DNA of 63,745 nt, the filler included, from Octopus bimaculoides (Eukaryota): the NCBI RefSeq assembly GCF_001194135.2. It is 7 parts of 6 records of this genome, joined end to end, with 100 filler letters (N's around TTAATTAATTAA, not from the genome) between each part and the next. Parts side by side here need not be neighbours in the genome. Positions count along the whole stretch, not along the records: positions 1 to 26,482 come from NC_068997.1; positions 26,583 to 32,742 come from NC_068991.1; positions 32,843 to 52,825 come from NC_068981.1; positions 52,926 to 57,223 come from NW_026395732.1; positions 57,324 to 61,092 come from NC_068990.1; positions 61,193 to 62,564 come from NC_068984.1; positions 62,665 to 63,745 come from NC_068981.1. One strand, written 5' to 3'. Under the pieces are notes generated by a model. The model had not been told where the DNA came from, searched no databases, and worked only from the letters and a program-made list of their open reading frames with translations. Below, in pieces: positions 8,655 to 63,070 of this stretch (its first letter is position 1; each line of letters starts with the position of its first letter). The position numbers were made by a program, and so were the translations under genes.

Positions 8655-8890
8655 TTTAATACAATGAGGTCAAGAATGGAGGTGATCGTATTCCACTTAT
8701 TCCTTCATTACGATCGTTTCGAAACTACATGGTTCAGACTCATCATGAAAATAATGATTATGTAATATTACAAAATGGAGGACATAATCATAATTTATTT
8801 TCATGATGTGTCTGAAATGTGTATTGTTGAAACGATCGCAATGCAGGATTAAATGTAATACCATAACTTCTATTCTTGAACTTACTACAT
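8655..8890. repeat. long inverted repeat (about 105-bp arms, 20-nt spacer); each arm carries a hammerhead-like GAAA-CGATCG motif
   Basis: atgattatg (8754-8762) pairs with cataatcat (8783-8791). Arms read ttattttcatgatgagtctgaa...ttcgaaacgatcgtaatgaagg (minus) and ttattttcatgatgtgtctgaa...ttgaaacgatcgcaatgcagg (plus). Confidence 0.8.
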
Positions 8891-10158
8891 ATATGCGCGT
8901 GTGTATGCATATGTTTATAGCTAAGAGAGACAGAGAGGGATACAGTTGCAGCGGACATAAACAAAGCATTTTGCATGTCACTTGCTCATATGGTGACCCA
9001 CTACACCAACACCACCTTGCAAGTCATGTATATAGCTTCCGCTTCTTACACACATCTCACACAGAACATGCATTACGCACACACCACTCGCACACACACA
9101 ACACAGTTTCACTCATTGCTTCACTACTGTCAATATGTTTTAGCGTCACACTCTGACCAAGTTATGTTTTTATTTTATTTTTAGGCTCCACTCGTTGGAT
9201 AACATTGTATAACAACAAAACCGCTGTGAACAACAAAAAACTATTACTACGACTACTACTACTACTACTACTACTACTACGACTACTACTACTACTACTA
9301 ACACTCAGTGACTACAACTATAGTTAACTCAGAGAAAGAAGTATTACTGTTACAACGACTACAATAATTACAACAACGATAGTAACTACGACAACAACAA
9401 CTGTAGGAAAGAATAGTAAAACAAAAACAAACCTACAACAAATATCTACAAATATCTACAAAACAAATATCTACAGAAACAAAAAATCAACGACATCAAA
9501 ATTAGAACAATGATAACCAGCATGCAATGCGAAAACAATAAGAATGATTTTTTAAAACACAGATTTGTATTTAGTGGAAGTCGCTTAATATAATCACGGA
9601 TAGTGTCTACCAAAAAGTAGTTTTTATTAGAATTAGCGGGTCTCAAAGTCTTTATTTGTTCAAAACTTTCAGCTGGTTATTATTATCACCCAGTTATTGT
9701 GATACCAAAGTGATCATAATGAGCGGCTTCTAATGTATTTATTCTAATATCTATACATGTATGCATATGTATATAAATATATGTGTGTATATATATAGGC
9801 ACAATTTTGAATATATAGCTATATATATATATATATATATNNNNNNNNNNNNNNNNNNNNNNNNNNNNNNNNNNNNNNNNNNNNNNNNNNNNNNNNNNNN
9901 NNNNNNNNNNNNNNNNNNNNNNNNNNNNNNNNNNNNNNNNNNNNNNNNNNNNNNNNNNNNNNNNNNNNNNNNNNNNNNNNNNNNNNNNNNNNNNNNNNNN
10001 NNNNNNNNNNNNNNNNNNNNNNNNNNNNNNNNNNNNNNNNNNNNNNNNNNNNNNNNNNNNNNNNNNNNNNNNNNNNNNNNNNNNNNNNNNNNNNNNNNNN
10101 NNNNNNNNNNNNNNNNNNNNNNNNNNNNNNNNNNNNNNNNNNNNNNNNNNATATATGA

Positions 10159-10209
<51 letters not shown>

Positions 10210-11291
10210 CATATATATATACATACATATGCATATACATACACACACACACAAGGTTATATAACCATATATTTACACGCATACATTATTCATGAAAAGT
10301 CTCTGTTGTTTTTGTTTTTGTTCTTTTAATGTGTGCATATGTCTTTGACGTGTATGCACATTTGTGTGAGAAAATGTGTACCCTCGGTGTATGTGCGTAC
10401 AAGTGTATATAAAATTATCTTTGATGTGTGTTTATGCACAATGAGTTTGCGTATATGTTCATGGGCATGTGAGATGTCAAGTTGTCACAAACGATAAACG
10501 AGAAAATTCAGAAGTATCTGTCAGAAATGGCTGCTGTTTGTTGTGTATTTATTGTTCTTCCGTTAAAGGGAGTTGTAGTGAGGGAAGGTGGAAAGGGAGA
10601 TAACTATATATCCGTTGGCTAAGCTTTACAAAGAAAGATGGCATAAAATGTAAACAATATACTCCGGGTGGAATCAAAGAAGATCGGGTGGTTTACGAAT
10701 GGTAGGTGGGATATGGGATTCGTTGGAAATACGATACTTCTAGAATGTTAGGTTGCAATGAGTGTTGACTTGAAATATATGGAAATGTAGAGTTACTGCA
10801 GCATATTGTGTAACTCGAATATGGAAGGTGAGGGTTGTAGTAGCGGCATCGTTGGTTGTGGAGTAAAGATTTATGGGGTAGAAAGGGTACATATTTGTTA
10901 ATAGGTTGAAACAGCGCTTAGAAATATGGACTTGTAAAATAAAACGAAATTGCTCGAATCAATTTAGGGATGCACACATGAATAAATACACATACACAGA
11001 TGAACACACATACACACATATAGAGATGCGCATTCACATATGATGTGTACATGTGTGTGCGTGTGTGTATGTGTATGCGTGTGTATTTTTATCACACCTG
11101 CACATACCACCACACAAACTCACATACATTCAGGACCTAATGAACGAACCACAACAAGCACCACACTCAAAGAGGTATAGAGAAAACTTTGTATCAAATT
11201 GGTTTTGGCGTCAAACCACTACGTCCGTTCTTATGTAGAATATATACACGTTCCAGGTGTTTCCTCTCCATAACTCCGAGTAGTTCTAATC

Positions 11292-11476
11292 CAGTATTCC
11301 ACAACCTTTTTTCACTTGCGGTATACTTATATTCTTTTCAAAATTCAGCAGCACACCTGAACTAAAAATATTACTAAAAGTATAGGGAAAAAATTATATT
11401 CAGGTTACACTGCGGCACACCTAGCATTGTCCTATGACACACCAGTGTGCCGTGGAATACCAGTTGCGGAGCACTG
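11292..11476. mobile_element. hAT-type MITE, 185 bp
   Basis: TIRs cagtattccacaac / gttgcggagcactg (11/14 match). 8-bp TSD ttctaatc (11284-11291) / tcctaatc (11477-11484). The subterminal cacaccagtgtgccg is typical of Charlie/hAT ends. Confidence 0.8.
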
Positions 11477-11684
11477 TCCTAATCATACCTTTGCGCAAGT
11501 TAGAATAAATAGCAGTTTCAGAAATATGAATGGAAAAAAGAATTGTTTAGGTAGGTGTCGACAAGGGCATAGCAGAAACTCTTTCCTTCATGGCATTGAC
11601 TTCTTTTGGATGGCTGTGTTATCACACACACGTGCGCACGCACGCATGCGAACACAAACACACAGATAGATGGAAAGATAGAAT

Positions 11685-11727
<43 letters not shown>

Positions 11728-11773
11728 CATACATACATACATACATACATACATACTTACAGACACATATATT

Positions 11774-11810
<37 letters not shown>

Positions 11811-11830
11811 ATACATATACATATATACAT
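11685..11830. repeat. compound (GATA)n-(CATA)n-(CA)n microsatellite
   Basis: Directly visible. Confidence 0.95.
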
Positions 11831-12519
11831 ATACACATGCACACGTTCGCAACGTACGTTTGTGAATAAAGGGAAGGTGAAATTAAATGAAACACATTTA
11901 ATAAAGACATCTATTTTCCGATTGATAATATTTATAAATCTACTACATCATCTTTTTAGAAAACATCAATAATTATAAAACAATTCCAGAATTATAGTCA
12001 GCATCATTTCAGTTTTCAATTCTCGGGTATTTTTTCAAGTAGAATCATCAAGGCATGGTTATCACGTTCATTTATCTCTTGTAAATAAGATTTACTGGTT
12101 CACAACGTGTCCTTATATTTACTCTGGCTTGTAGGCAGTTTCTACTGAATGACGCTTGCTTTTACCTATTGCTGTGTAGTGTAGGCCAAATGAATACGAT
12201 GCTCTCATGTCCATGTAAGCATATTTCAACATCATTTGATATTGTACATTGGGAGGGGACAAAATCTTGCTTGAAACTCGTTTTAAGATGTTGTTAGTTA
12301 CCCTCATCCCCTTTGTATCTTTTATCAACCATTATAGCGTAATATTGCTCGTTTAGACTTCCTAGAATCTATGACTAAAAGCTTTAAACAGAAAATAACA
12401 GAAGTAATCTGAATATATGACATTATTGAACTATATCTTCTTAACACTTCAAAATCAGCTACTTTTGTTAATTAAGAGGCTACTAAATATGTGAGCAAAA
12501 GGTTTAGATTCTGAATCAA

Positions 12520-13055
12520 CCTCAGTACTTATTTCCGTTAATCCTGGTACTTATGCTATCGGTTGCTTTTGCTGAACCACTAAGTTGTGGGAACGTAAAC
12601 ACATCGACACCGCTTGTCAAGCGATAGTGGGTTTTATTCAAATTTACGAATCTATTGAATATAGATTTATTCAAATTTACGAATCAATTGCATATTTCGG
12701 GCATTTCGTCCGTCTTTATGTTCTGAGTTCAAATTCCACCGTGGTCAACTTCGCCTTTCATCTTTTGGGGTTGATAAATTAAGTACCATTTGAATACTGG
12801 AGTCAATATAATCGACAAGTCCCCTCACCCAATATTTCAGGCCTTGTGCTTGTACTAGAAAGGATTATTAGTATTGTTTTGGGACAGTTGGTTGGCAGAA
12901 TCATTAGAGCGTCGAACAAATTCCTTGCGACATTTCCTGCAGCTCTTTTAATTCTGAGTTCAAATCTCGCCGAGATACCAGTCAGGTACAGGGGTTGAGG
13001 ACATCAACTAAACCTTACTCTCAATACTGCTGGCCTTGAGCCCAGGTTAGAAATG
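12520..13055. mobile_element. SINE cluster: family B fragment (-) and two family C copies (+)
   Basis: B-tail reverse complement at 12520-12625. gttctgagttcaaattcc...ttcgcctttcatc...aagtacc at 12700-12870 and again at 12885-13055. Confidence 0.75.
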
Positions 13056-13269
13056 CTATTTTATGTTTTGTTTTATGAGTGTTTTTATATTATATCATCA
13101 GTGACTAGTTTCCTACTTATGGATCAACCAGAAGGTCATACTTCACTGGTTTCCTGTTGATAAGAAAACATTAGCTAACAACATAAGTATCTAATACAGA
13201 ATGCCTCACAACACTGGAATACTACCAATGAAATCTCTAATGATATTAATGATAATCTATATAATAAAC

Positions 13270-13297
13270 AACAACAATAATAATAATAATAATAATA

Positions 13298-13350
<53 letters not shown>
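13270..13350. repeat. (AAT)n microsatellite
   Basis: Directly visible. Confidence 0.97.
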
Positions 13351-13471
13351 CACATATATAAGGTATACTAGTAACAAAACCACTTCCTGATTGCTGAAAG
13401 GAAGTGTCAAGAATTTAAATATGGAGGCAATGACAGACTTACACACACTCAGACACGTGCGCGCGCGTACA

Positions 13472-13531
<60 letters not shown>

Positions 13532-13760
13532 ACACATACCTCTGCACTCATACAATCTAATGTCATCAACAGAAAGGACATTTTAGAAACTAAACGTGCT
13601 ATAACTCTAGCATCGTCATAAAATGAAACGATTGTAGATATGTAACAATAAGCATAACAAGGATGAGCCCCGGGGCGGCACAATGTCATTAAATCTAATT
13701 ATATAGCTAAGTTATATATAAGTGTCTAGTTTCACATACTCGTGCGCCCACATATCGGCT

Positions 13761-14135
13761 CAGGCGTGGCTGAGTGGTAAAAACTTTGTTTTTCAACTTC
13801 ATGGTTTCGGGTTCAGTCACACTGCGTGACATCCTGAGCAAGTGTTTTACTGTAGCATCGGGCCGACCTGTGAATGGATTTGGTTGACATAAACCGAAAA
13901 AAGTTCGTCGTGTGTGAGTGTGTGTGAGTGTGCGTGTGTGCGCGCGCAAGCGAGTGGGGTGTCTGTCTTTGTCCCCACCACTGCTTGACAAACGGTTCGG
14001 CAAAGGTGACCGCTAGAATAAGTACCAGGCTTAAAATGAAAATGAATACTGGGATCGATTCGTTCAACTAAAATTCTTCAGGGCGGTGCTCCAGCAAGGC
14101 CGCAGTCCAAGGACTAAAACAAGGAGAAAATAAGA
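13761..14135 (+). mobile_element. SINE family B, full length and degenerate
   Basis: Head caggcgtggctgagtggtaa...ggttcagtcacactgcg, central (GT)n, tail gcggtgctccagcaaggccgcagtc. Confidence 0.85.
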
Positions 14136-14778: not shown

Positions 14779-14978
14779 AGTTTTAAGTTTTGGCACAAGG
14801 CCAGCAATTTCGGGGGTAGGGGGTAAGTCGGTTACATCAACTCAAGTATTCAACTGGTACTTATTTTATCGACCTCAAAGGATGAAAGGTAAAGTCAACC
14901 TTTACTCAGAACGTAAAGACGGAAGAAATGTTGCTAAGCATTTCGTCCGGCGTGCAAACGTTTCTGCCAGTTCGCTGC
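14779..14978 (-). mobile_element. SINE family C with about 20-bp target-site duplication
   Basis: Flanked by attcagtcttcttttatatt (14759-14778) and attcagtcttctttatatt (14979-14997). Confidence 0.9.
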
Positions 14979-15057
14979 ATTCAGTCTTCTTTATATTGAG
15001 AAATAGACTGACTTAGGCTGCAACATTCTGAAGGGATATTAATAAGTCTTGTACATA

Positions 15058-15262
15058 AGACAGCGAGCTGACAGAATCGTTAGCCGAGCAAAATGCTTTG
15101 CGGCATTTCGTCCGTCTTTAAACTCTGAGTCCAAATACGGCCGAGGTTGACTTTGCTTTCATCCTTTCGGGTTCGATAAAATAAGTATCAGTTGAGCACT
15201 GGGGTGGATGTAATCGACTTGCCCAATCACCCGAAATTACTGGCCTTGTACCAAAATTTTAA
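15058..15262 (+). mobile_element. SINE family C
   Basis: agcgagctgacagaatcgttag...ctgagtccaaat...ccttgtaccaaaattt, with a decayed TSD taagtcttgtacat / taagtctggtgcat. Confidence 0.88.
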
Positions 15263-24350: not shown

Positions 24351-25160
24351 AGATAAGCGATAGACCTGTGCGCCAACAAAGGCCAAGGTAAAGAACTTGA
24401 ATATTTACCTATATGTACGGTCTTTGTACATAAGTGTACCGATCAATAACAAACCTTAATTTCTACAAAACTGAGAGAAATCTATTCTAAAATGTCCAAT
24501 ATAATATTTAATGATTTCAGATCTATGACGATTGTGTATGAGATAGATAGTTTCAACAAGTTGTTTTTCTTGATTCATGAGCCTGACTACTAAAACTAGG
24601 ATAGATATGTCATGTTGCTTTATGTAATAGGTTCTAGGTGCCAGCTTTCGTGTAACTTTGACTGAATGAAAAGAGGAGACAACTTAGTTGTCAAATGGTG
24701 TTTATTTGAAAGGATCTTCCATTAAGAAGTTAATGTAAGCCCTTTAAAGTGCTTTGATAAATTTACAAAGAACTGAGTATGCTTTAAATAACACTTTGTA
24801 TACAAGTGTTATTTACAGCGTTTATTTAACATGCATGAGTCAAGGACACATGTTAATTCTGAGGCTAATCTATTACAAATTGTTTGATGAAATATTTAAC
24901 GAATTCAAAGGCATGGTTATTGTCTACGAGATAGAAAGGAAACAGAATTGACAAAGATTTGAAAAACATCTTGGTGAATATCTTATTAATTCCGAAACTT
25001 TAATACACGCGCTCACACACACACACAGGCGCGCTCACATACGCTCAACATGCACGCATGTATACTTGCACATAGATATACAAACATATATGTATGTGTG
25101 TGTGTGTGTAAGAGAGAGAGTGAGAGAGAGAGAGAGAGAAAATGGAATTCACGAGACTAT

Positions 25161-25264
25161 TCACTACGATCGTTTCGTCCCATCATGCACCGGAACATCG
25201 AAGGTGAGATACTGAACAAACAGTTGCGGTGCATCAAAGGTGCTGATGTGTCTCCTGAGGTGAC
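25161..25264 (-). ncRNA. hammerhead ribozyme motif, type I, degenerate core
   Basis: Minus strand: tcac CTCAGGA gacacatcagcacc...ggtgcatgatgggac GAAA CGATCG TA gtga. Stems I and II pair; the core has G5 changed to C. Confidence 0.65.
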
Positions 25265-26099
25265 TTGTTAAAAGGCACCTCGTTTTTTATTCACCGTTTC
25301 GCTAATTTGTATAACAATCCATTTTAGTAATGGTGTACTGTGCGTCTTTACAAGGAAATAAAATCCAACGTGCGTTAAACGGCATACTACAAAATCTATG
25401 CCCGTATATATAATTACTATATATATATATACATAAATACATACGTACACACATACACACACACACAAACATACACACACACACACACAGTGCAGGAAAT
25501 GGGATTCAGGAATCCTGGTGGCTACCCTACTCAGTGTCCATATGAATACAGGCTGACAGGATGTGCGAAAGGAAACAATGCTTCAATAGAAGACACAACC
25601 AGAAAATTCCAGAAAATTTTCGTCACTCTTCTCAAAGAATAGAAGTATCGGTATTACATTTATTCTTAGATGGTGTCCGCTTCGATAACAGATGGCTAGC
25701 AGAATCGTTTGACATGCTGGAAAACGTGCAACCATTAATATAACAATGATAGTGTAATCTTAAGCCATATTGCACGCGACCCAGCTGTCATCTCATCAAG
25801 ACCGAATAACGAAAGTAATAGACATGAATTTAGATGAATACATCTATATATATTCACAATCAGAGGGGGTGGAGCTTATAGTAACAAAGCAATCGCTTTG
25901 ACAGGCAAACGGAAGGATAAAGAGTTACAGTGGACACAGGTGTTTGATAAAATTGATCGTGACTCCGGATATATTCACTAGACTGGACAGTCGGGCAGTT
26001 GGCTGTCCGAGTAGATAAAGCGGGATTTAAATAATTTGGGTATCAGTTAACAGAATCGCAAATAAACTGGGATTGGGGTCTAGAACAACTTCAAACGAA

Positions 26100-26260: not shown

Positions 26261-26482
26261 ATATGCCGTACGGTTGTATTACATCTCATGTCTTTTCAAC
26301 TTTTTTATTTACATGTAATCATAGGTCAACTATGAATGTTGTCTATGAATATTATCTATTTTTACTGTCTGTCTTGTATTAATACGACCCTGAGGAGATA
26401 CAATATACCATATTTTATAATATGCATGAATCGATCTGGATATTGCATCGAAATGATCATAGGTCATAATAAAATCTTTACA

Positions 26483-29182: not shown

Positions 29183-31139
29183 TATACACTCTACCTTACA
29201 TTTCATCATTCTCTTCGCACACAAGAAAATAAGGAGATTGCCCCGACATGTTTCCCGATTGCTTGATCAATCGTCAGAGAGTGCGCCAACCTTCTCTCAC
29301 CTACTGTCTACAAAGAGGACTTTATCCAATTGTTATTTAAACCAGTCACAAGCTAGCACTTAACAAAGATAAACTTAAGGCAGTTAGGACGTAGTTTGTA
29401 AAACATATGTTAAAGAAAGATAAATATGAATATATTTTATCCGCTAAGCATACAGATTTTTCGGCTTAGTATTGGTTACAAATTTATTCATACAATGATT
29501 GTAATAAAGTTCTCTTCCAACGATTGTTCTAAAGTTATTTTCTGTGAGATGTTTCATGGCTGGTTTGTCTTCAGTGTCTCCATTACAGACGCGAGGTTAC
29601 CAGAGCTTGCTACCATGAACAGATCGGGAAAATTTCCAGGTAGAACAGTAGAACACAGCGTCAACAAGTGGTTTTAGTTTCAATATATTTGTCAACACGT
29701 GCTTTCTCGCAGACAAAATAATTCTCATGTTCCGCTTGTTACTATGGAAACAGGCATGAATGTCTCTGTTGCTTACGATTGGCTAAAATTACCCCAAATT
29801 TTCAAGCCTTAATTGCTAATAAACTCTTTATTTATTGACTTATAGCAAAAGTTGTTTTCATGGCATTTATTAGCCTATAAAACTGTATCATCACAATGAA
29901 TATGAAATTAATTCGAACAGAAATTGATGCTGATCGACGCTGGCAGCCAAACAGAAAAGATCCCAGCTGAGTACTGGGGTCGATGTAATCGACTTAGCCT
30001 TCCCCAGAAATTGCTGGCCATGTGCCAAAATTTGAAACCAATACCTATAGGCTGTTACCTATCGTGTTGTTGTTTGAACCTCAGGTTAGCCTTTACTGAA
30101 CAGACTTATGATCAAAGGTCATGATCAATTACACTCCAACAATGACCATCATGTCTATTTTCAGACAGCGCATCAAGGACCTCATTATGTTATGAAACCC
30201 CGTCCATTTTTTTTTTTGACGATGTGATTCGCGGGAGATTTAGTTGTTATATCTGGCAGCTTGTTTTATCGTGGTGGCCCTCTGGTTATTCATGTTCTTT
30301 GTGGTGGGTGGTATTTACTGTTAAATTATTCTTAACTTTTCATCGTCTTAATACTGCTTCTTTTTTTATCCAGCACGTTAACAAATTTGCCGTCTGCTTT
30401 CATTTTCTATTCGACGGTGTTGGGTCATCTGTCGATACAATTGTTCTCCCAGTAACAAATATCTCATTGTTTTTAACTCTTTTAAGCAACCTTACTCTCA
30501 TGAGTCACACTTTTTGTCTGTCAACATATTTATTTTCCATATCTCTTTCGTCTATTGTTCAAACAATTTCCGGAAAATATTTGGTATATCCGTGTTAACC
30601 TTTGGCAAATTCTGACGTACTTATATATATATATATATGTATGTGAGACAATATATGTGTTTGTATATGTATGCTGAGGAGAGTGTGAACGTGTACGTAC
30701 GCACATATCTTTGTTTGTATATACGTGTGTGTATATATGTTTGTATGTATTTTTTGTGCATTCTCTCTTTCTTTATACATATGTTTTAGTATGTGTGCTT
30801 GTATGTATGTATGTAATGTACACATGAGTAAGCGAAAATATAAGTTGAAATGATAAACTTTAGCTCTTTCTAAATAAAGGTGACAGTTCGTTGACATTGC
30901 AACAAGATGAAAGAAGTTTAAGAATAAACGTTACATCAGTGAAAACATTCTTTAATGAATATGCTTAATTGTTTTGTTTTAGTTTTCCATGTTGTTTCTG
31001 ATATTATAAAAAAATGTTTTGACGTGTATTAGTTTCTCAAAAAAAAAAAAAATGAAGAAAATGGCCGCGATTTCTACAATTGGCATGAAGAACTACAACT
31101 GTGTAGTAATTCTAAATAAAACTGGAAACTGGATAACGG

Positions 31140-31928: not shown

Positions 31929-33435
31929 CATGCGAGTGTGTGTATAGGTGTGTGTAGGTATGTTTGTATGCATGCATGTATGTATACATACATACATACA
32001 TTCATACATGTGTGTGTAGGTACGTTTGTATGTATGTATGTATACATACATGCATACATACATAAAAAAAATATATATACATACATACATACATACATAC
32101 ATATATCTATGTGTGGGTGTATGTTAAAAGATAAAGTGTGGAGTTACTTAAGTTTGTATACCGTTGGGAGAGGGATTTCCGACGTTTCGAACAAAATTGT
32201 TTACCAACGAAAACTTTCCTGCCTACTCAGACCACACACACACACGTGTGTGCATGTGCGCATACCATTGCACATGCACTCACAAACGGAAACCACATGC
32301 AGTACATCAGTTTTGTTTATGAAATCTAGTTATTCATACAACACACACATATGTAGGGTACGACCGTGCGAACTCAAAAAGGAGAAATGGTGACGAATGG
32401 AAGAACAGGTCTCCTTTTATTTAAACGTGTCACACGGTCGAACACACAATAATATATCAAATATGATATACATGATATGTTATGCTACGATAACATAGAT
32501 GACCAGTAATGAAAGACCACAACCGTATTAGATGAATAACAGAGATATTTATTATAGCGTTAAAGATGTATGTCTGTGTGTGAGTGTGAATGCGACATAT
32601 AAGAACATAATCAAAGACAGGCCGTCATACAAAGAAAAGTGTGTATGTGAGTGATACATGTGTGTGTATGTGAATTATTACAGCAAATAGAAAGAGAGTC
32701 AGTAAATAATACGTGAGCAATTATACCAGTTCTTTAGTACACNNNNNNNNNNNNNNNNNNNNNNNNNNNNNNNNNNNNNNNNNNNNTTAATTAATTAANN
32801 NNNNNNNNNNNNNNNNNNNNNNNNNNNNNNNNNNNNNNNNNNCACATATATATATACAAACAATATATGAGTATATGCATATATATGTACATGTATGTAC
32901 ATACCTTCATCCACATGTACATATAGATACATAACTAGGTACATGCCGTGGCAAAAGGACATGGACAAAATGATAAACAAAGTACAGCAAACAAGCAGGC
33001 CACATAGAGACATCTCCTTCATCAGCTGCCACCATTAAAACACCGGCGTTTCGAAGAATTAAGGCAGTACGCATCGTTAAAATGGTTCTTCCCACGAACA
33101 CAAATAAAATTTTTTTCGTGGAGGGTAGTGGCGGACGGAAAACAAGAAAGGAAAACGAAACGGTGAAATAAACAAACAAAAAGGTTGTACAGCCAGACGT
33201 GAAGTGTGTATGTATTGAACGCTGTGAAGCACGAACAAGAGGGGCAAAGAAGTACGTGCGAGCTTGGGGAGTCCAAGAACGAAAAGTAATAGCAGCCGGA
33301 CACACGTGACCAGCACTGTGTAGAGAGAAAGAGTAGCAGAGGGAGAAGAAGGGGAGGAAGTAGAATAAAAGTAAGCAACGAGAGGTAGAGAGGGAGAGAG
33401 ATAGTAGTAGTAACGGTGAGAGGCGAAGGACGAGC

Positions 33436-37585: not shown

Positions 37586-37709
37586 TTATTTAAAATCATT
37601 ACAATTGTTTCGACACATTTTTGCAGCCGTAGTAAATTGGTGAAATGTGTAATCATTATCATGCGTGCAAGGTTTAAAATGCACCTCCTCAGGTGATTGT
37701 TTAAATAAG
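37586..37709 (-). ncRNA. hammerhead ribozyme, type I, Penelope-like, long stem II; core intact
   Basis: Minus strand: ttatttaaacaatcac CTGAGGA ggtgcattt...aaatgtgtc GAAA CAATTG TA atgattttaaataa. All conserved core bases are present, the triplet is GUA, and there is one mismatch at the base of stem I. Confidence 0.82.
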
Positions 37710-41475: not shown

Positions 41476-41656
41476 TACAAACACAAACACATACATACAT
41501 ACATACATACATACATACATACATACATACATACATGCATATATTTGTAATGTCGATATATGTTCGTTCAGATAACGGTATATAAAAGCACTTGTAATGT
41601 TTCGAAGTTAACTGAAGTCACACTGTGGAACAGTCATTTTAACGAGTTGTTTCTAT

Positions 41657-41772
41657 TTATTTATCACCCAACGAGATACATCTGCACCACTGAATGCTCC
41701 TGAACCAGTTGTTGAGTGTCCCACAAGGGGAATCGATGCTAGATGTGTCGAAACAATTGTCGTGATTAATAA
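41657..41772 (+). ncRNA. hammerhead ribozyme motif, same family as 37586-37709, variant core
   Basis: atcac CCAACGA gatacatct...agatgtgtc GAAA CAATTG TC gtgat. Stems I and II pair fully and the triplet is GUC, but the core reads CCAACGA. Confidence 0.72.
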
Positions 41773-42639
41773 TAATTTTTCGTATATTCCATCTTCTGTC
41801 TTTCCTTTGTTATATACCTAACGATCACTCTAAAAGTGACCGTGCTTTACCAGTAAGCTACCAGGTGCAAACTCATGCACACACCCATAGACGTACTTAA
41901 TCGCACATACATGCACAAACACGCATATACCTGGTCACTGTCATCCTCCTTGCCACCTACCCCTCAAGCCAACTTTTCAGCATATCACGACCGTTTAATC
42001 AGAGACGTTTGCTTTTCCCCTCCATCTATCCTTTTTATAGAATAGTGTAGTCTTTAAACGTTAATGACTTCTATTTTTCTCGAGCGTGAACCTGATACAC
42101 TCTTACTGTTGCTTTTTACCTCGTCATTATGTTTTTTTTTTTTTTTACTTTGAACCATATATTGTGTGTGTGCGTGCACGTGTGCGTGTGTGTGTGTGTG
42201 TGGGTGGCTGTTCGGGCTTAATCTGACAGTTTGCATAAAAGGGGAAAAAACCCCATGTCCCATCCCAAAACAAAAGTATTTAAGAAAATCAAAAAAATAT
42301 CAGCCAGATTATAGCTGATAGATAACGGTTCACTCAAAGCAGCCGCCCTCAGTTTCCGCCATGGCTTCAAGGATCTGATGATCTTGGTCACCAGCTCGGT
42401 TGACATCTTTCTCAATCATGGAATAACAATCAGGGAAATTTGGAGCTGACGGGTTTGTAGGAATTTTCCGATAAACACTCTTTCCTGGGATGTGGCCAAG
42501 AACCGAATGCCGCAGCCACACCTAAAACCGTTCTAGCAGCAACCCGCATCAGCAGGTTTTATCTACAGTTTTCAGCAGCTTCGCATAGCCCTCTGAATGA
42601 AACCTTGTCCTGTCCTGCAGGTGTTAGATGAATTCCAGC

Positions 42640-42778
42640 GTGAGGGTTACCAACCACATGGTTCCGGGTTCAGTCCCACTGAGTGGCACCTTTGGCAAGT
42701 GTCTCCTACTATAGCCTTGGGCCGACCAAATCCTTGTGAGTGGATTTGGTAGACGGAAACTGAAAGAAGCCTGTCGTA

Positions 42779-45900: not shown

Positions 45901-45919
45901 TGCGATATATATATATATA

Positions 45920-46084
45920 GGAGTGGCTATGTGGTAAGTAGCTTGTTTACCAACCACATGGTTCCGGGTTCAGTCCCACTGCGTGGCACCTTGGGCAAGT
46001 GTCTACTACTATAGCTTCGGGCCGACCAAAGCCTTGTGAGTGGATTTGGTAGACGGAAACTGAAAGAAGCCCGTCGTATATATG

Positions 46085-49764: not shown

Positions 49765-50039
49765 TTGTAGTAAAGATTGTTTGTTAACATAACATGGCAG
49801 TCCTTGCTTAGGACTAATGTTGCTGTAATTTAGCCCCAGGAGACATGGTCTCTAGTTGTCTATATGACACAATATTGTTTTGAGCTGAGTGGGGGTGCTA
49901 GATTCCCATGTTCGAAAATATAAGGACACAGATCGTGTCGTATAGCCAGCTGGAGACGATTCTCCTGGGGCTAAATTACAGCAACATTCGTCCTAAACCA
50001 GGACTGCCATGTTATGTTGGCAAACAATCTTTACTACAA
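49765..50039. mobile_element. MITE-like foldback element, about 106-bp arms and about 64-bp spacer
   Basis: ttgtagtaaagattgtttg..aacataacatggcagtcct...gttgctgtaatttagccccaggaga...gacac (49765-49870) is mirrored at 49935-50039. Confidence 0.9.
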
Positions 50040-52549: not shown

Positions 52550-52982
52550 ATCATGGACGGACGGTAGACACATCGGCTCCCATGTAAGTTGCATTTTTCA
52601 CCTCTTAAAAGACCTATTTTGTTTTAAAATTTTGTATAAGTTGTGTATAACACAAAATACTTCGTGAACATATATTTTTCAAATCGGAAATAGCTCTATT
52701 TAGAGCCTTATTTCCAAAAATTCAAACATATCTTCCTCGTTCCTAGCCATATTCTTTAAAACGAATATGGCTAAGGTTTTCAACGAGGCCGACTTCCCGC
52801 TCCTAATGCCAGAGGCGAAAACACTNNNNNNNNNNNNNNNNNNNNNNNNNNNNNNNNNNNNNNNNNNNNTTAATTAATTAANNNNNNNNNNNNNNNNNNN
52901 NNNNNNNNNNNNNNNNNNNNNNNNNGTTTTTTTTTTTTTTTTTGTTATGGGGTCTGGTTGCAGTCTTTTGTTGTATTAGTGT

Positions 52983-54690
52983 TTGGCTTTCATTGACATG
53001 GAGAAAGTATTTGACAGTGTCCCCCGATCCCTTATCTGGTGGTCAGTATGGAAACTAGGGATAGACGAGTGGTTAGTGAGAACTGTACAATCTATATACA
53101 GGGATGCTACCAGTAAGGTGAGAGTTGGCAATGAGTATAGCAAAAAATTCAGAGTACAAGTAGGGGTTCACCAAGGATTGGTGCTCAGCCCCCTCTTGTT
53201 CATCATAATCCTTAGAGCTATACAAACCATGTACAGGGATGCTGTCAGTAAGTTGACGGTTGGCAATGAGTATAGTGAAGAATTCCGGGTAGGAGTAGGG
53301 GTCCACAAAGAATCAGTTCTCAGCTCCCTCTTCAGAGGAATTCAGGACAGGTTGACCCTAGGAGCTCCTCTATTTTGATGACCTTGCTCTGATAGCTGAA
53401 TCACTACCAGAACTAGAGGAAAAGTTTCAGGTGTGGAAGCAAGGTCTAAAAATCGAAGGGCCTTAGAGTCAATCTAGCTAAAACCGAAGTCTTAGTAAGT
53501 AAGAAGGCAGATAACCCACAAATCCCTTCAGATAGATGGCCCTGCTCAATTTGTAGGAAATGTGTAGGTAGAAACTTCATAAGATGTATCTGGTGTAAGC
53601 TATTGACACATAAAAGGTGCAGCAATATCGAAGGAAGGCTAACTGGGAAGATAGTGTTTGTGTGTGGCAGATGCACTGGGGCAATAAACACTGTAAATTT
53701 TCAGAGAACAGCTTCCATCACATGTCCAGGGGAAAAATTGCAAGTAGTTGATAGCTTCTGTTACCTAGGTGACCAATTCAGCAGTGGTGGTGGATGCTCT
53801 GAGAGTGTAGCTGCTAGAATAAGAATAGTCAGGGCAAAGTTCAGAGAGCTCCTAAATCTGCTGATGACAAAGGGCCTCTGACTCTAAGTGAAAGGCAGAC
53901 TGTATGATGCTTGTGTGCGAACAGCCATACTACACGACAATGAAAAATGGGCTGTGACTGCTCAGGATATGCATAAGCTTGCAAGGAATAAAGCCAGTAT
54001 GCTCCGCTNNNNNNNNNNATGCATAAGCTTGCAAGGAATAAAGCCAGTATGCTCCGCTGGATGTGTAATGTCAGTGTGCATACTAGACAGAGTGTAAGTA
54101 CCTTGAGAGAAATGTTGGACATAAGAAGTATCAGATGTGGTGTACAAGAGAGGCAACTGTGCTGGTATGGTCATGTGTTGCATAAGGATGAGGACAGCTG
54201 TGTGAAAAAGTGTCACACCCTAACTGTGGAGAGAACCTGTGGAAGAAGTAGACCCAGGAAGACCTGGGTTGAGGTGGTGAAGCATGACCTTTGAACGAAT
54301 TTGGTTCAACTTCAATTTCACTTGTTGGGGCAAGTGAAATCGAAATTGAACCAAATTCGATGACTGGCTCCTGTGCCAGTGGAGTGCTAACAGCACCATC
54401 TGAGCGTGATCATTGCCAGAGCAGCTGTCTGGCTTCTGTGCCTGTGGTACATGAAAAAACATTTGAGCGAGGTCATTACCAATACCGCTGAACTTGCTCC
54501 TGTGCAGGTGGCACGTAATAGCATCCACTACACTCTTGGAGTGGTTGGCGTTAGGAAGGGCATCCAGCTGTAGAAATTCTGCCAAATCAGATTGGAGCCT
54601 GGTGTAGCCATCTGGTTCACCAGTCCTCAGTCAAACCGTCCAACCCATGCTAGCATGGAAAGCGGACATTAAACGATGATGATGATGATA
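52983..54690 (+). mobile_element. RTE-clade LINE, 5'-truncated: RT with PHD-like insert, C-terminus, tandem-repeat 3' UTR and (GAT)n tail
   Basis: MAFIDMEKVFDSVPR; VGVHQGLVLSPLLF; DDLALIAE; FCYLGDQ; LCWYGHV; GRSRPRKTW; 3' end ggagtggttggcgttaggaagggcatccagc...catgctagcatggaaagcggacattaaacgatgatgat. Confidence 0.95.
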
Positions 54691-56064: not shown

Positions 56065-56279
56065 ACTGAGTTTGAATTTCAATATCCTCTTTATCCTTTG
56101 GAAATATTCTCTCCTGAATAAAAAAAGAAAAAAATCCCGAAAAATTTGATAAAATGCAAGAAATAAAGACATACGGAGCAAACAAGAAGGTATTTCACTG
56201 AAAGTTCTTTCTGAAATAAGACTAAACTTTGTTTCTTGTACAGAAGATTGCTTGCTTCCAGTTTTGCACTCCCAAGCAA

Positions 56280-56900: not shown

Positions 56901-57433
56901 TGCATTCAGGACCTCACTTTTGCTATGACAGATATGTGTCTTTATGTGTCATTTTGTTCAACTTGCGCCAGGAGGTGTGTTGCCAGGCAGAAGACTGCAC
57001 CAGACTTCTCTGCATGCCAAAACAGACACAGAAGTCTGGTGCCATCTTCTGCCTGGCCAGTTCCTGTCAAACCATCCAACCTATGCCAGCATGGAAGGTA
57101 GATGTTAACGATGATGATGACACATTGATATTTGTTTATTTTCAGAAACTAAATTATCAAGTCCATTCTTTCCTGGTCCACCACAGAAAACATCCCCAAT
57201 GACATCCACGATTAATGTGATATNNNNNNNNNNNNNNNNNNNNNNNNNNNNNNNNNNNNNNNNNNNNTTAATTAATTAANNNNNNNNNNNNNNNNNNNNN
57301 NNNNNNNNNNNNNNNNNNNNNNNTATATATATATATATATATATGTATGTACGAAAAATAACAACAACAGACGAGGACAGGTGGTGTAAACAACAAAAGG
57401 ATGTATTAGTTTGACGCTCGGGAATACAGAAAG

Positions 57434-57470
57434 TCTTTAACGTTTCGAGCTACGCTCTTCAACAGAAAGA
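57434..57470 (-). ncRNA. minimal Penelope-type hammerhead motif
   Basis: Minus strand: tcttt CTGTTGA A gagc-gta-gctc GAAAC GTT aaaga. Stem I has 5 bp, stem II has 4 bp and stem III has zero loop; A6 is changed to U. Confidence 0.62.
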
Positions 57471-57791
57471 ATACGGAGAAAACAAGGAGAAAAACACAGA
57501 GAAAAAAAATTGAATGGTGTTTGGTCAACGATCTATCATGGCTTCTGTCATGGCTTCAGGAGACCACTAGGTGGACTGTTAATGTGCTAGAAGAAGATCA
57601 CAGGTAATGTGTCTACTAAGACCAAATTGTTCTCAAAGGAAATTTAGCAAAGAAACAAAACGTATACGGGCAAGACAAGTGAAAATTACATAAATATATA
57701 CAAAGTTCTTTGCAAACTAGTTTTGAAATTAACATTTTCTCACCGAAAATATCTTTATTCAAAATTTGGACAGAACTTATGNNNNNNNNNN

Positions 57792-58235
57792 CAATCTGAT
57801 TTGGCTGAGTTTCTACAGCTAGATGCCCTTCCTAACACCAACCACTCCGAGAGTGTAATGGGTGCTTTTACGTGCACCGGCACGAAGGCCAGTCAGGCGG
57901 TACTGGCAATGGCCACGCTCAAAATGGTGTATTTTACGTGCCACCTGCACAGGAGCTAGTCTAGCGGCACTGGCAAGAACCTCTCTCCAATGTCTTTTCA
58001 CGAGCCACCGGCACAAGTGCCAGGAAGGCGATGCTGGTAACGATCATGCTCAAATGGTGTTATTTACGTGCCACTGGCATGGAAGCCAGACAGCTGCTCT
58101 GGCAACGATCACGCTCGGACGGTGCTCTTAGCGCTCCACTGGTACAGGTGCCATCACAATTTTGGTGCCATCACGATTTTGCTTTCACTTGCCCAAACAG
58201 GTCTTCGCAAGCCAAGTTTAGTGTCCAATGACAGT
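57792..58235 (-). mobile_element. RTE 3' UTR copy with five tandem about 65-bp units
   Basis: Reverse complement of the 54300-54600 3' end. Shorter 3' tips of the same family lie at about 57050-57120 (+) and 60330-60395 (-). Confidence 0.88.
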
Positions 58236-58449
58236 GGTAATCAGTCCTCTATGCCAGACGTCTGGTATAGAAATAGTTAGTGAAACCTTTCACTGTCAGT
58301 TGTAACTGCAGCCATTCCCTTATTTTTATTATCATGGAGGCTTGTATTTAGGTCTTAAAACATGTAACTTCTGTAGGGAGAGTGTAGAAAAATATTAAGC
58401 TGTTACATTGAATAGGTTGTGAATTATAGACAATCCCTTTTTACTCAAA

Positions 58450-58668
58450 CTAACCCTTTTGATACAAATCTATCTGAGATTGCCTTTGGTTCCATTATAT
58501 GGATTTACTGTTTTAAGTGATCCAAATTCAAACTTTCCATTTAAATTTATGCTTCAAACACATTATAAAAACGACAAAATTATTTTATTAAGTTCTTTGT
58601 TATTTTCAAAATTAATTGGAACAAAGGCAATATATTTTAACAGAAATATGGTAACAAAAGGATTTTAA
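58450..58668. mobile_element. piggyBac-like MITE
   Basis: ctaa|ccctttt gatac ... gtaac aaaagga|ttttaa: decayed CCCTT...AAGGG termini with TTAA-like flanks. Confidence 0.55.
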
Positions 58669-59233
58669 AAATTATATCATATGACTAATTGAAGTGTTCT
58701 AAATGTGCTGAAGTGTTCTAAACAGAGGGAGAAAGCTTGTGTGAAGAGCAACAATAGAATTAGAACGTGTAACAGATTAAAGCTTGTGTTCAAGGACTAT
58801 ATTGACTAATGCTACACATACTTCACTACTACACTGAAGTTACTTACCCCTGTTTGAATTTCAGAAAATTTAGGATCAAAATTTGATTCCTGAAAGCAAA
58901 AAAAGCATGATACAAGACTGTTTAGGATTTCATGCCAAAATTACCATATTGTATTGACCAACTTTACGAAGTATTTTGAATGTAAGGTTTCAAGTAATTA
59001 TCACATTGATTCTTTCAAGTTGATATAAAAAAATTCAGCAATATAAAGTTTGTCCTGATCAAATTCTACTAGAAATGGTTAAAGCCAAGTGTTATTTGTA
59101 ATATCATACTATTCTGTTCTTTATTAAATATATTCAAGCCAATCATTTGAAATTGACACTAAGATTACTGGATGCTACTTTAGTATACAGTAAACTGCAG
59201 TATCCATAGTCCACACAGACACGCAAACACACA

Positions 59234-59274
<41 letters not shown>

Positions 59275-59667
59275 ATGCATACATTTGTATGTAGACCACA
59301 CACATACACAAGTACAACCATAATCACATTCATATAAAACAATACATACATGTAACAACCACAGGCAAAGATTACAGTTGTCATGTTTGAATAAGAATAA
59401 ATTTTTAACAGCTTAATTCTATAAGCTGATCCGATTTATGGATAAACACTCTGAAAATATTCTAAATTATTTAAGTTAGAATTGGACCAAAAAAGGAGAG
59501 TTTATAAAGTTGTTATGAATTTTATTATTAGCCATAGCATGGCACCTTGGGCAAGAGTCTTCTACTATAGCCTCACACCAACCAAAGCCTTTTTATTGGA
59601 TTTGGCAGATGGAATCTGAAAGAAGCTCATCATAGGTTCTCAGAGGGAAACCAAGTAGACAAAAATT

Positions 59668-59730
59668 GCACAGAAGCCCATCAGATGGATTGTATCAGTA
59701 GGTACAATCCATCTGATTGGCCTTCTCTGT
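59668..59730. other. strong hairpin (15-bp perfect core, 8-nt loop, imperfect lower stem)
   Basis: atcagatggattgta (59680-59694) / tacaatccatctgat (59703-59717), extended by cagaagcc / ggccttctctg. It lies between SINE fragments. Confidence 0.7.
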
Positions 59731-60559
59731 ATCACCTTAATTGTGTTTGAGGGTACATGTGACTGTGGAATACTCAGCCATTTACATGCTAATTCAATAA
59801 GTAAGAGGTTTAGTTGATTAAACAACTGAATACTTATTGAAACTAATGGAAACTCATTTAAATATTGGCTAATAAAAGTGGCTCTCTATTTGGAGCTATG
59901 TACTTTCATTCAGGAAAACCACAGGTATTTATTAATCAGGAATAACAAACTAAGTTGTATGCATTAGCAATTTAGAACATACTATGCATGGTTTAACAAA
60001 GAGCCAATGTTTGCCTTCATAAGGGTGTAGAGCAATATCAAGTCCTCACCAAACAGGTTTTTCAGGTAAAAGTTATGAAATAATTTCAGTATGATTAGTC
60101 TACCATAACTTGGTTCAGTGCAGTGATAAATGAACGCAACATGCAAAGGCATTCACTTTGTGGCAGTAGAGAAGGAAACTGCTATTTGGGTTAAGCTGGA
60201 GTTGTTCTGTTAAAAGCTTTCATATTAAACTGCAAAGCATTTGACGGTATTACTGTATATCATTAACTGAAAACCAATGGTGTGCTCTACACATAATTAG
60301 ACTATATATACATACAGACACACACACTATATCATCATCATTTAATGTCCATTACCCATGCTGGCATGGGTTGGACAGTTTGACCAGAGCTGGCAAAATT
60401 AGACCCCGGTGTCCTTACAGGGAATTGATATTCTGCCAGATAAAGAATGACTGTAAGAAGGATCAAGTTGAGCAGATACAAAGGCAATTATGTGGATAAA
60501 CAAATTAGATACATTAACTATATTAAATATATGTTTCTATATTATAAATAGAGGCTGTG

Positions 60560-61092
60560 GTATTATGAGCCAGGCTGTGTTGTAGGGAAGGACCGGAAGT
60601 GAGGGAGTACGCACGTCCTGTCTGAAGTAGGGCCTGTGGGGCCCACCAGAAGTGCTGCGGTGGGCATGTGGGGTCGGCGAGGTGGAATGGTCAGTTGGCA
60701 GTGGACAGCATATGAAAGCAAACCTGTTAGATGGTATGGTGGCAGACAGAGCACGTGGATGTTGTGAGTGACCCCTTCCAGATAGATAGGCAGTACGGCA
60801 ACAGACAGAGCATGTAGACTTTGTGGGTGACCCTTCCAGATAGATAGGTAAGTGTTATGTTTCCCTCGGGTGACTCGTAGAGATAACACAACGAGTTATA
60901 CAATTTAATTATTACATTTATTGTTCAATTACATACAAAGAACGCACTCACCCAATGTTCGTTATGAATAAACAAAAGTCATGTCCGCCATATATATGTC
61001 AATGACATTTTACTACGACAGTCCCACAAGACAACAACAATGAAACAATGAACTCAGACGAACCACGTGACACACGGAACGTCAGACGAATT
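60560..61092 (+). mobile_element. possible LTR-retrotransposon 3' end (PPT-like purine tract then TG)
   Basis: GC-rich block with an about 58-bp tandem duplication, then agatagataggtaag|TGTTATG at about 60854; cut by a gap. Confidence 0.25.
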
Positions 61093-61304
61093 NNNNNNNN
61101 NNNNNNNNNNNNNNNNNNNNNNNNNNNNNNNNNNNNTTAATTAATTAANNNNNNNNNNNNNNNNNNNNNNNNNNNNNNNNNNNNNNNNNNNNTCCTATTA
61201 ATTTATGCTCTATTTTATGTTCCTACACCCCACACAGCCTTTGAATTCTTCTGTTCCAGTAAATTGTTAGCCAAAAAGTACAATTACCTCCAAGTTTAGA
61301 AGAA

Positions 61305-61312
61305 ACATAATG

Positions 61313-61400
<88 letters not shown>

Positions 61401-61667
61401 TAATAATAATAATGATAATAATAATAATGATAATAATAATAATATGAACTACAAAAAAAAAGCGGCTGTTCAAAATAACAATCGTCCTGTAATTTTCTTT
61501 TGATCATATTACCGTGAATGCAATTTTTTTTTATTTTTTCTCCTTTAGGATCATTCCTGATGAGTTATCGATTATTATTATTATCATCATTTTATTATTA
61601 TTATTATTATTATCATTATTATTATTAGTATTAGTATTATTATTATTGTTGTTGTTGTTGTTGTTGC

Positions 61668-61730
<63 letters not shown>
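61305..61730. repeat. (AAT)n tract and oppositely oriented (ATT)n tract
   Basis: Directly visible at 61305-61445 and 61570-61730. Confidence 0.95.
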
Positions 61731-61733
<3 letters not shown>

Positions 61734-62256
61734 ATTTTTCATATCATAAAAGTTGTATCTCTTTTATATTTATTATTTTAGTGTTAGTTTTCAATTTGAC
61801 AAAAAAAAAAAAGAAGTTCTAATTAATCAATAAATGTAAAAAAGTTCTTTAAAAAATACCAAATTCCATTGGTGTTCCTTTATATGAAACCTGTTTGAAT
61901 CTTTATTACAAAACAAAAAGACAAAACAAAAAACAAACAAACAAGGAATTGTTTGTTAATTTTTATTGTTTATTATAGTTGTTGTTTTAAAGAGAAAACT
62001 GTTGCCAATTTTAGCGAAAGAAAGAAAGGAAGCGTCCGATTGAAGAAGTATTTTCATACACTTCACTGTTTGTTGTTTATAAGATTGTATGAAATATTCT
62101 GGAGGTGATTCCGCCTTCCCTATGAACACGTTCGAAGAAAGTTCCCCCTCATTTCTACATAGAAAATATATAAATACATCGGGACGTATTTCTTTTGGAA
62201 TACATACATACATACATACATACATACATACATTCATACATACATACATACATACA

Positions 62257-62490
62257 TTGATGTGGAAATTCTAATGAAGGAGCCTTGGATCTAGGTTAGA
62301 AACCGGTTCTTTCTCTATTGGAATGAAATCTTGAAATAAATTGAATAATGACATACATACATAAATACATACATACAAACAAAAATACCCTGTTGTTGAT
62401 GTTGAAATTCCAATGAAGGAGCCTTGGATCTAGGCTAGAAACCGGTTCTTTCTCTATTCGTAAGAAAACTTGAAATAAAACTGAATCACA
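62257..62490 (+). repeat. direct repeat pair (period 139 bp), each with a hammerhead-like motif
   Basis: gaaatt CTAATGA aggagccttggatctaggtta GAAA CCGG TT ctttc at 62265-62315 and gaaatt CCAATGA aggagccttggatctaggcta GAAA CCGG TT ctttc at 62404-62454, separated by (TACA)n. Confidence 0.8.
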
Positions 62491-62527
62491 TACATGCGTA
62501 CAAATATGTATATATATATATACATAT

Positions 62528-62564
<37 letters not shown>

Positions 62565-62939
62565 NNNNNNNNNNNNNNNNNNNNNNNNNNNNNNNNNNNN
62601 NNNNNNNNTTAATTAATTAANNNNNNNNNNNNNNNNNNNNNNNNNNNNNNNNNNNNNNNNNNNNATATATATATATATATATATATAATTATGATAAGAA
62701 TATTAGGGATAAAAATCCAAATTTACAGGGATTCAATTTAATTTAATTTATCAAAATTAAAATTAAATAAAATTTCACAATATATAATATATAAATATAT
62801 AATTTAGAGAAAAAACCATAAGTACTGAATTCATCCATGAAAATCCACAATCACATATAGAAAATTTAATAAGTAAATACACTAAAAAGACCTATAATAA
62901 AAATAAAAAAAGTACAAAGTAATAAATATTAAAATAATA

Positions 62940-63070
62940 AAAATTATTACACGTGTTTCATAACCACATTTCCAAATAGGAAATAAAATAAAAATCAAAT
63001 CGATTCAAAATAAATCGATTGAAAATCAATTCTATTCAATAATATAGCTAATCTTCAGGTCAAAATACAA
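62940..63070 (-). ncRNA. hammerhead motif with about 90-nt stem II region, downstream of a Penelope ORF remnant
   Basis: Minus strand: CTGAAGA ttagctatatt...aatgtggttat GAAA CACGTG TA. Core intact; stem I poorly paired. Confidence 0.55.

What the first reader, a model, noticed from the sequence alone, without database searches (positions are those of the whole stretch)
8704..63070. Stem III palindrome covaries across dispersed hammerhead copies
Seen: after GAAA the copies read CAATTG-TA (37602), CAATTG-TC (41754), CGATCG-TA (25167, 8711), CGATCG-CA (8833), CACGTG-TA (62950), CCGG-TT (62301, 62442) and CG-TT (57441). The sequence changes but self-complementarity is always kept, which is what selection for intermolecular stem III pairing would leave. 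Copies 25161, 37586 and 41657 also share stem II (ATGTGTC-like before GAAA) and a downstream ATTCCAT. About nine motifs in roughly 57 kb of called sequence suggests a very high genomic copy number. Inference: an abundant, possibly undescribed cephalopod system of dimer-cleaving ribozyme retroelements with several subfamilies.
Basis: partly seen in the sequence, partly recalled or inferred. Interest (0 to 1): 0.82.

Follow-up and report, generated by a model that had tools for sequence, protein, structure and literature searches.

The report
Dimer-type hammerhead relics in animal retroelements
Seven scattered, mostly worn copies of the hammerhead self-cutting RNA motif keep a self-complementary third stem, which likely lets two copies pair up to cut; this is a known trait of Penelope-type jumping genes, which these likely come from, and only the unusually long second stem looks new.

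Summary
Real but largely known. 62301/62442 are one tandem duplication with an altered core. 8711/8833 are two arms of one foldback. A full-motif rule gives 6 hits against 0.2 in shuffles. Five motifs have a long helix II and a six-base palindrome (CAATTG twice, CGATCG, TGATCA, CACGTG). Within one homologous family, the palindrome differs by one compensatory pair, and CpG decay could give that change. The 41750 family is high-copy (3171 and 2621 contigs in two organisms). RNA reads look like passenger transcription: no end piles and no circle joints. No Penelope ORF lies in the window, so the parent element is inferred. Palindromic helix III, dimer cleavage and family-specific palindromes are published for Penelope-type hammerheads (Cervera and de la Pena 2014; Perreault 2011), where the dimer is read as two copies on one transcript. 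This scan found the same kind of motif before in three windows of other genomes. New here: a 53-93 nt helix II domain that published descriptors and Rfam miss, and possibly a U4C core.

The parts
41606..41880 (+). Family A repeat copy (about 270 bp) with a long-helix-II type I hammerhead at 41663-41767: helix I 41663-41667/41762-41766, core 41668-41674 (CCAACGA), helix II 41675-41684/41740-41749, GAAA 41750-41753, palindrome CAATTG 41754-41759, UC 41760-41761
   Evidence: extent from contig depth; G5 restored in 88% of summed depth in X1
37594..37697 (-). Family A copy: perfect core CTGAGGA, 10-bp helix II around 54 nt, palindrome CAATTG (37602-37607), first helix I pair broken; homology runs on to ATTCCAT, then a TATC microsatellite
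25159..25264 (-). Family A copy: core CTCAGGA, 7 of 9 helix II pairs, palindrome CGATCG (25167-25172); followed by ATTCCAT and a TC microsatellite
26386..26465 (+).
   Evidence: found by the covariance model trained on the three family A copies, E 2.6e-5
62942..63064 (-). Probable decayed long-helix hammerhead: perfect core CTGAAGA, GU-rich 10-bp helix II around 70 nt, palindrome CACGTG (62950-62955); helix I mostly lost; not found by the family A model
57434..57470 (-). Classic minimal hammerhead (5-bp helix I, core with A6 changed, inserted A, 4-bp helix II, GAAA-CG-UU) in a repeat of about 150 bp
42001..42150 (+). Decayed sister copy of the 57446 family; hammerhead core lost
29240..29281 (-).
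8666..8884 (.). Possibly a head-to-head pair of element ends; not counted as a hammerhead
   Evidence: (E 0.044)
62214..62479 (+).

Best explanation
These are worn genomic copies of type I hammerhead ribozyme motifs that likely come from the 3' terminal repeats of Penelope-like retroelements or their non-autonomous derivatives, and their self-complementary helix III would let two copies pair and cut.

Shown: conserved core and GAAA-NUH, helices I and II with compensatory changes, a palindromic helix III, and a high-copy family shared by two organisms.

Predicted: as a monomer, helix III (2 bp plus tetraloop) is unstable (+2.4 kcal/mol); two like copies form an 8-bp duplex (-6.4 to -10.3).

Inferred from published systems: in an active parent, two terminal-repeat copies on one transcript swap strands at helix III, cleave after the UH, and release the element RNA, which is reverse-transcribed and inserted mostly as short 3' pieces. 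Selection on the parent keeps each family's palindrome. Inserted single copies decay and are transcribed only as passengers. Five copies carry a variant with a 53-93 nt helix II domain.
For: Full-motif rule 6 against 0.2 shuffled, 0 of 150. Scaffolds found without looking at helix III: 3 of 13 are followed by a 6-nt palindrome + TH, against 7 of 848 GAAA overall (p about 1.5e-4; post hoc thresholds). A model trained on three copies found a fourth with a new palindrome. On the four-copy model-fitted alignment, 91.7% of cells pair and 8 of 18 pairs change on both sides; slid controls give at most 1. On the three-copy MAFFT alignment, 3 of 18 pairs. Reads laid on 41550-41960: 3171 and 2621 contigs; 41670 is G in 88% of summed depth in X1, restoring G5; N7 varies (22%); no variant row for 41746-41761 among the 40 of 120 rows shown; depth falls towards the 5' side. 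Duplex energies. Same architecture published for Penelope elements; Penelope families are abundant in Octopus annotations.
Against: No Penelope RT or GIY-YIG match in 138 frames on the upstream side of the copies or in 107 other long frames; the only RT hit (52980-53375) is not beside a motif. No Rfam hammerhead among 136 matches at E up to 1. Unconstrained folds give the hammerhead helices for 41750, 57446 and 26450 but not for 37611, 25176 or 62959, and most z-scores are weak. Family A lacks the inserted base after A9 that is typical of Penelope minimal hammerheads. With 3-4 related sequences the covariation controls are not probabilities, 13-16 of 500 shuffles reached the observed values. 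No cleavage was tested, and no read-end pile marks the predicted site.
Confidence: 0.7

Rival explanations
1. Family A is a non-LTR retrozyme or Sm-alpha-like short element: a 270-bp non-coding unit that amplifies through tandem arrays and circular RNA, with these copies as stray monomers.
For: Length about 270 bp is in the 170-400 nt range of animal retrozymes; helix III of 2 bp plus a palindromic 4-nt loop is the canonical metazoan type I form; no ORF is attached. A 2026 preprint derives retrozymes from Penelope terminal repeats, so this rival overlaps the best explanation.
Against: All three window copies are solitary. None of the 15 of 23 joints shown links the 3' end to the 5' start, and all listed joints are single contigs. 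In RNA, 598 and 658 reads of 12-13 million were laid, 92-93% run on into unlike sequence, both directions are equal, and no joints or end piles appear (only about 6% of each run was read, and such libraries may lose small circles).
Confidence: 0.15
2. The hammerheads are real, but the palindrome 'covariation' among six-base palindromes is mostly neutral: CGATCG decays at its two CpGs to CAATTG or TGATCA, and half of all double decays stay palindromic.
For: Sequence arithmetic: of the four double CpG-decay products of CGATCG, two (CAATTG, TGATCA) are palindromes, and both occur here. Only one within-family compensatory pair is seen.
Against: CAATTG looks like the majority state of a high-copy family (no variant row shown at 41754-41759), so it was amplified, not made copy by copy. 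26450 is a different family. CACGTG and CATG are not such products. No single-decay copy appears among the 4 model hits at E below 0.001, three of which trained the model.
Confidence: 0.1
3. The motifs are not ribozymes; they are DNA-level hairpins or palindromic sites in repeat ends that resemble hammerheads by chance.
For: True for some sites: 62299/62438 fold as a plain hairpin and 8720/8829 as a foldback; 4-nt palindromes after GAAA are not enriched.
Against: Core, GAAA-NUH and three helices co-occur far above shuffles; helices use G-U pairs; the family majority restores G5 while N7 varies.
Confidence: 0.05

Closest known systems
Minimal and palindromic-helix-III hammerheads in pseudo-LTRs of metazoan Penelope-like elements (Cervera and de la Pena 2014, PMC4209133; read: main text parts 1-2 of 4 and the supplement PDF)
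   Same: Type I order, CUGANGA/GAAA-NUH core, short helix I, palindromic helix III predicted to need a dimer, many dispersed single truncated copies, several families per genome with different palindromes, pairs on opposite strands. 57446 matches the published layout.
   Different: Five motifs have a 53-93 nt helix II domain (published descriptor: loop 2 of 3-10 nt); family A has no inserted base after A9; no Penelope ORF was found beside any copy.
Repeat-type dimer hammerheads of Aedes and others (Perreault et al. 2011, PMC3088659; read: passages and the Fig. S8 legend; the supplement search found none of my terms)
   Same: Palindromic stem III/loop III giving a long stem only in a dimer (10 bp in Aedes, 8 bp here); a U4C natural core variant is noted.
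   Different: No cephalopod or long-helix-II case in the passages seen.
Non-LTR retrozymes of animals (Cervera and de la Pena 2020, PMC7229834, passages; Li et al. 2026, 10.64898/2026.07.22.740005, parts 1-3 of 5)
   Same: Short non-coding unit with a type I hammerhead; some need dimers; molluscs (mussel) have them.
   Different: Defined by tandem arrays and abundant circular RNA; neither was seen here.
Naiad Penelope-like elements of cephalopods (Craig et al. 2021, PMC8557442; passages and a search of the supplement, which is cut)
   Same: (TA)n association; some have the two core halves far apart ('HHR_half_core', including Naiad_Ovul).
   Different: Naiads lack canonical hammerheads; the family A, 57446 and 62959 motif strings were not in the held supplement.

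Membership tests
Type I hammerhead ribozyme | Core C3-U4-G5-A6-N7-G8-A9 and G12-A13-A14-A15.1 | tested here: met
   Perfect in 26450, 29254, 37611, 62959; 1 change in 25176 and 57446; 2 in 41750, where 88% of depth restores G5. Not met by 62299/62438 or 8720/8829.
Type I hammerhead ribozyme | A15.1-U16.1 pair and H17 cleavage site | tested here: met
   All seven accepted motifs; fails at 8829
Type I hammerhead ribozyme | Helices I and II with compensatory changes; G10.1-C11.1 | tested here: met
   G-C present in 25176, 26450, 37611, 41750, 57446; absent in 29254, 62959
Type I hammerhead ribozyme | Match to an Rfam hammerhead model | tested here: not met
   0 of 136 matches at E up to 1
Type I hammerhead ribozyme | Self-cleavage at the UH | not testable with these tools
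   No read-end piles in two RNA runs, which is not a cleavage assay
Penelope pseudo-LTR hammerhead | Palindromic helix III too short for a monomer | tested here: met
   Monomer +2.4, homoduplex -6.4 to -10.3 kcal/mol
Penelope pseudo-LTR hammerhead | Short loop 2 (3-10 nt) of the published descriptor | tested here: not met
   Met by 57446 and 29254 only; five motifs have 53-93 nt helix II domains
Penelope pseudo-LTR hammerhead | Penelope RT plus GIY-YIG ORF upstream in at least some copies | tested here: inconclusive
   None in the window; truncated copies are expected to lack it; no genome was held
Penelope pseudo-LTR hammerhead | Motif duplicated in two terminal repeats of a full element | not testable with these tools
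   Needs the assembly
Non-LTR retrozyme | Tandem arrays of 170-400 nt units each with a hammerhead | tested here: inconclusive
   Unit size fits; copies solitary; no end-to-start joint among 15 of 23 shown
Non-LTR retrozyme | Abundant linear and circular monomer RNA | tested here: inconclusive
   About 50 reads per million, 92-93% running on into other sequence, no back joints; library may not keep small circles
Naiad Penelope-like element | Sequence match to cephalopod Naiad 3' ends | tested here: inconclusive
   Exact short strings absent from a cut supplement; no alignment was possible

The most novel reading that the evidence does not exclude
The host carries an undescribed class of long-helix-II hammerhead retroelements, thousands of copies strong and invisible to published descriptors, in which each family's 8-nt helix III palindrome is a self-recognition code: like copies form active dimers and unlike ones mostly do not (homoduplex -6.4 to -10.3; five of six mixed pairs -1.9 or weaker). 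Element RNA could then cut host transcripts that carry a sister copy in trans, and one subfamily may have amplified with a weakened U4C core.
Probability: 0.12. Interest if true: 0.7.

Novelty: new variant of a known kind. Interest (0 to 1): 0.27.

Why it matters
The principle (dimer hammerheads with palindromic helix III in Penelope-type repeats) is in print, so it would not surprise a specialist. What could matter: ribozyme counts in animal genomes rest on descriptors with a short loop 2, so long-helix variants such as these are likely missed; and several natural 8-nt palindromes in one genome give a ready test of whether dimers are family-specific and whether they can form in trans. The near-intact 26386-26465 motif makes that test cheap.

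Tried and rejected
- Whole genome: none held, so no genome-wide count, clustering or R-scape.
- Rfam: only microsatellite-driven and hairpin matches.
- Generic repeat finder: swamped by N runs and microsatellites; replaced by self-BLAST.
- Pattern scans for relatives: viral contigs 0 and 0; metagenomes 29 hits, none with the family A core, 2 of 29 with a palindromic centre; prokaryotic genomes 0.
- Sequencing runs: no RNA holder listed; that blank is no evidence.
- Aligning 62959 with family A failed; it is not clearly homologous (z 0.2, 3.6 and -0.6 against the three copies) and the model did not find it.
- Unconstrained cofolding of two copies did not give the helix III dimer; these programs cannot model it, so it was not used.
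- 32188(-) (core CTGAGTA, CG) and 23620(+) (ATATAT, low complexity) were considered and not accepted.
- (TA)n loose ends behind 41816 (40 and 52 contigs) may be a target site or an internal repeat; some contigs bridge on to 41870, so this was not used as proof of Penelope targeting.
[quoted passage not shown] It may already cover long variants or heterodimers. Repbase and Dfam were not searchable. One search opened an unrelated paper.
- Not-in-print claim for cephalopods and long helix II rests on searches; two octopus repeat papers have no 'hammerhead' in their main text (supplements not read); the giant squid paper counts 235 Rfam hammerhead-1 loci.
Full report
Setting. The window is AT-rich, microsatellite-rich animal DNA with 6974 N. 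It holds a mariner fragment at 2-523 and an RT fragment at 52980-53375.

Observation. The nine strings exist; five are on the minus strand. I tested each for the parts of a type I hammerhead: core CUGANGA, helix II, GAAA, helix III, UH and helix I (definitions from Cervera and de la Pena 2014). 37611(-), 41750(+), 25176(-) and 57446(-) pass, and 62959(-) probably does. 8720(-) and 8829(+) are the two arms of one foldback at about 8666-8884 (z about -10). The right arm has C where U16.1 is required, and neither arm has a full core. The left arm keeps a 5-bp helix I and scores E 0.044 with the family model, so a decayed head-to-head pair of element ends is possible but unproven. 62299 and 62438 are one tandem duplication with A at G5 in both copies and no G10.1-C11.1 pair; they fold as a plain hairpin.

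Chance. GAAA + six-base palindrome + TH occurs 7 times against 2.7 in local dinucleotide shuffles (3 of 100 reach it); four-base palindromes are not enriched (8 against 9.6). Five of those seven sites have a core and a long helix II. Scaffolds found without looking at helix III were followed by a six-base palindrome in 3 of 13 cases, against 7 of 848 GAAA overall. A full-motif rule gave 6 hits against 0.2 (0 of 150 shuffles). These thresholds were set after I had seen the copies. The cleaner test is out of sample: a covariance model built from three copies found 26385-26467 at E 2.6e-5 as its only other hit below 0.001 among 25 listed, and that copy has a new palindrome, TGATCA.

Families. 25176, 37611 and 41750 are homologous from the core to ATTCCAT (58-66% identical; z 6-15). 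26450, 62959, 29254 and 57446 are not clearly homologous to them; 57446 has a decayed sister at 42001-42150. In the three-copy alignment 92.6% of cells pair and 3 of 18 pairs change on both sides, two in helix II and one in helix III (13-16 of 500 shuffles reach these values). Adding 26450 in a model-fitted alignment gives 8 of 18 (this leans towards the model). So the structure covaries, but within a family the palindrome evidence is one pair in one copy. CAATTG and TGATCA are also exactly the two palindromic products among the four double CpG decays of CGATCG.

Copy number and expression. Laying four runs on 41550-41960 at 80% likeness gave 3171 contigs in organism A (X1) and 2621 in organism B (X14). 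Summed depth peaks at 303,185 in X1 against 34-67 for single listed contigs; the tool warns that this is no copy number, but it points to thousands of copies. Depth spans about 41606-41880, peaks at the GAAA-palindrome and falls towards the 5' side. 41670 is G in 88% of X1 depth, restoring G5; N7 varies in 22%; 41666 A>G and 41677 T>C keep their pairs. Only 40 of 120 difference rows were shown; none falls in 41746-41761. None falls at 41669 either, and two contig snippets in table 5c also have C there, so this subfamily may have a U4C core, a variant said to lower activity in vitro (Perreault 2011). This is indirect, and the other two family A copies have U4. Two RNA runs (about 6% of each read) gave 598 and 658 reads of 12-13 million. 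Both directions are equal, 92-93% run on into unlike sequence, many carry A6>G (about 70% in X22), and there are no end piles or joints. That fits passenger transcription of dispersed, decayed copies; it does not exclude small circles that such libraries lose.

Mechanism. Predicted monomer helix III is +2.4 kcal/mol; homoduplexes are -6.4 (CAATTG), -7.2 (TGATCA), -10.0 (CGATCG) and -10.3 (CACGTG); five of six mixed pairs are -1.9 or weaker, and CGATCG with TGATCA is -5.6. I infer that the active parent carried two motif copies on one transcript that swap strands at helix III and cleave, as proposed for Penelope elements and shown for newt and viroid RNAs (review passages). Selection for a palindrome follows from this cis arrangement and does not require pairing between separate molecules. 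The Penelope origin is inferred: Pfam found no RT or GIY-YIG in 138 frames upstream of the copies, nor a Penelope-type hit in 107 of 116 other long frames submitted (9 microsatellite-dominated frames left out). A retrozyme-like short element is the main rival; no tandem array or circle joint was seen.

Known or new. Cervera and de la Pena 2014 name the palindromic 15.2-16.2/loop 3, dimer architecture, thousands of dispersed single copies, opposite-strand pairs and several families per genome; their Fig. S3 has Aedes families with CGCG and GGCC centres and molluscan examples from Lottia and Crassostrea. Perreault 2011 Fig. S8 describes the palindromic stem III and a 10-bp dimer stem. A 2016 paper reporting dimer cleavage was seen only by title. 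Penelope families are abundant in Octopus annotations. Three earlier windows of this scan reached the same verdict in other genomes (unchecked AI notes). What I did not find in print is a helix II domain of 53-93 nt in such motifs; the published descriptors allow a 3-10 nt loop or a 7-17 nt spacer, and Rfam missed all copies. Repeat libraries and the 2016 paper could not be checked and may already hold these families.

Verdict. Observation partly confirmed; interpretation partly supported. A new variant of a known kind, interest 0.27.

Noticed in passing
   Followed up: yes
window 41669 (family A): Possible U4C core majority in the high-copy subfamily; indirect evidence only.
   Followed up: partly
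window 8666-8884: Strong foldback (about -60 kcal/mol, z about -10) with arms of about 110 nt; weak similarity to 25635-25706 (E 0.084).
   Followed up: partly
window 62214-62479: Tandem 139-bp unit with a hairpin, beside an ATAC microsatellite; looks like a retroelement 3' end of another kind.
   Followed up: partly
window 14782-15262, 49765-50039, 53349-53475, 56982-57057: Other self-inverted stretches; the first is built from a dispersed SINE-like family also at 12695, 48438 and 49090.
   Followed up: no
window 5885-6031, 13749-13909, 42647-42776, 45919-46076, 59532-59631: A second dispersed SINE-like family ending in (TA)n.
   Followed up: no
window 2-523 (-) and 52980-54291 (+): Mariner transposase fragment (HTH_48, E 4.5e-23) and a broken LINE-type RT (RVT_1, E 1.2e-9) with an internal 135-bp duplication.
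   Followed up: no
L002, L020, L021, L025 around position 1500: AT-rich metagenome contigs with compact hammerhead-like motifs (core-like heptamer, short helix II, GAAA-CG-UC in three of them), unrelated to family A; possibly animal host repeats.
   Followed up: no
window 32170-32235 (-): Weak hammerhead-like motif (core CTGAGTA, GAAA-CG-UC) next to a GT microsatellite; not accepted.
   Followed up: partly
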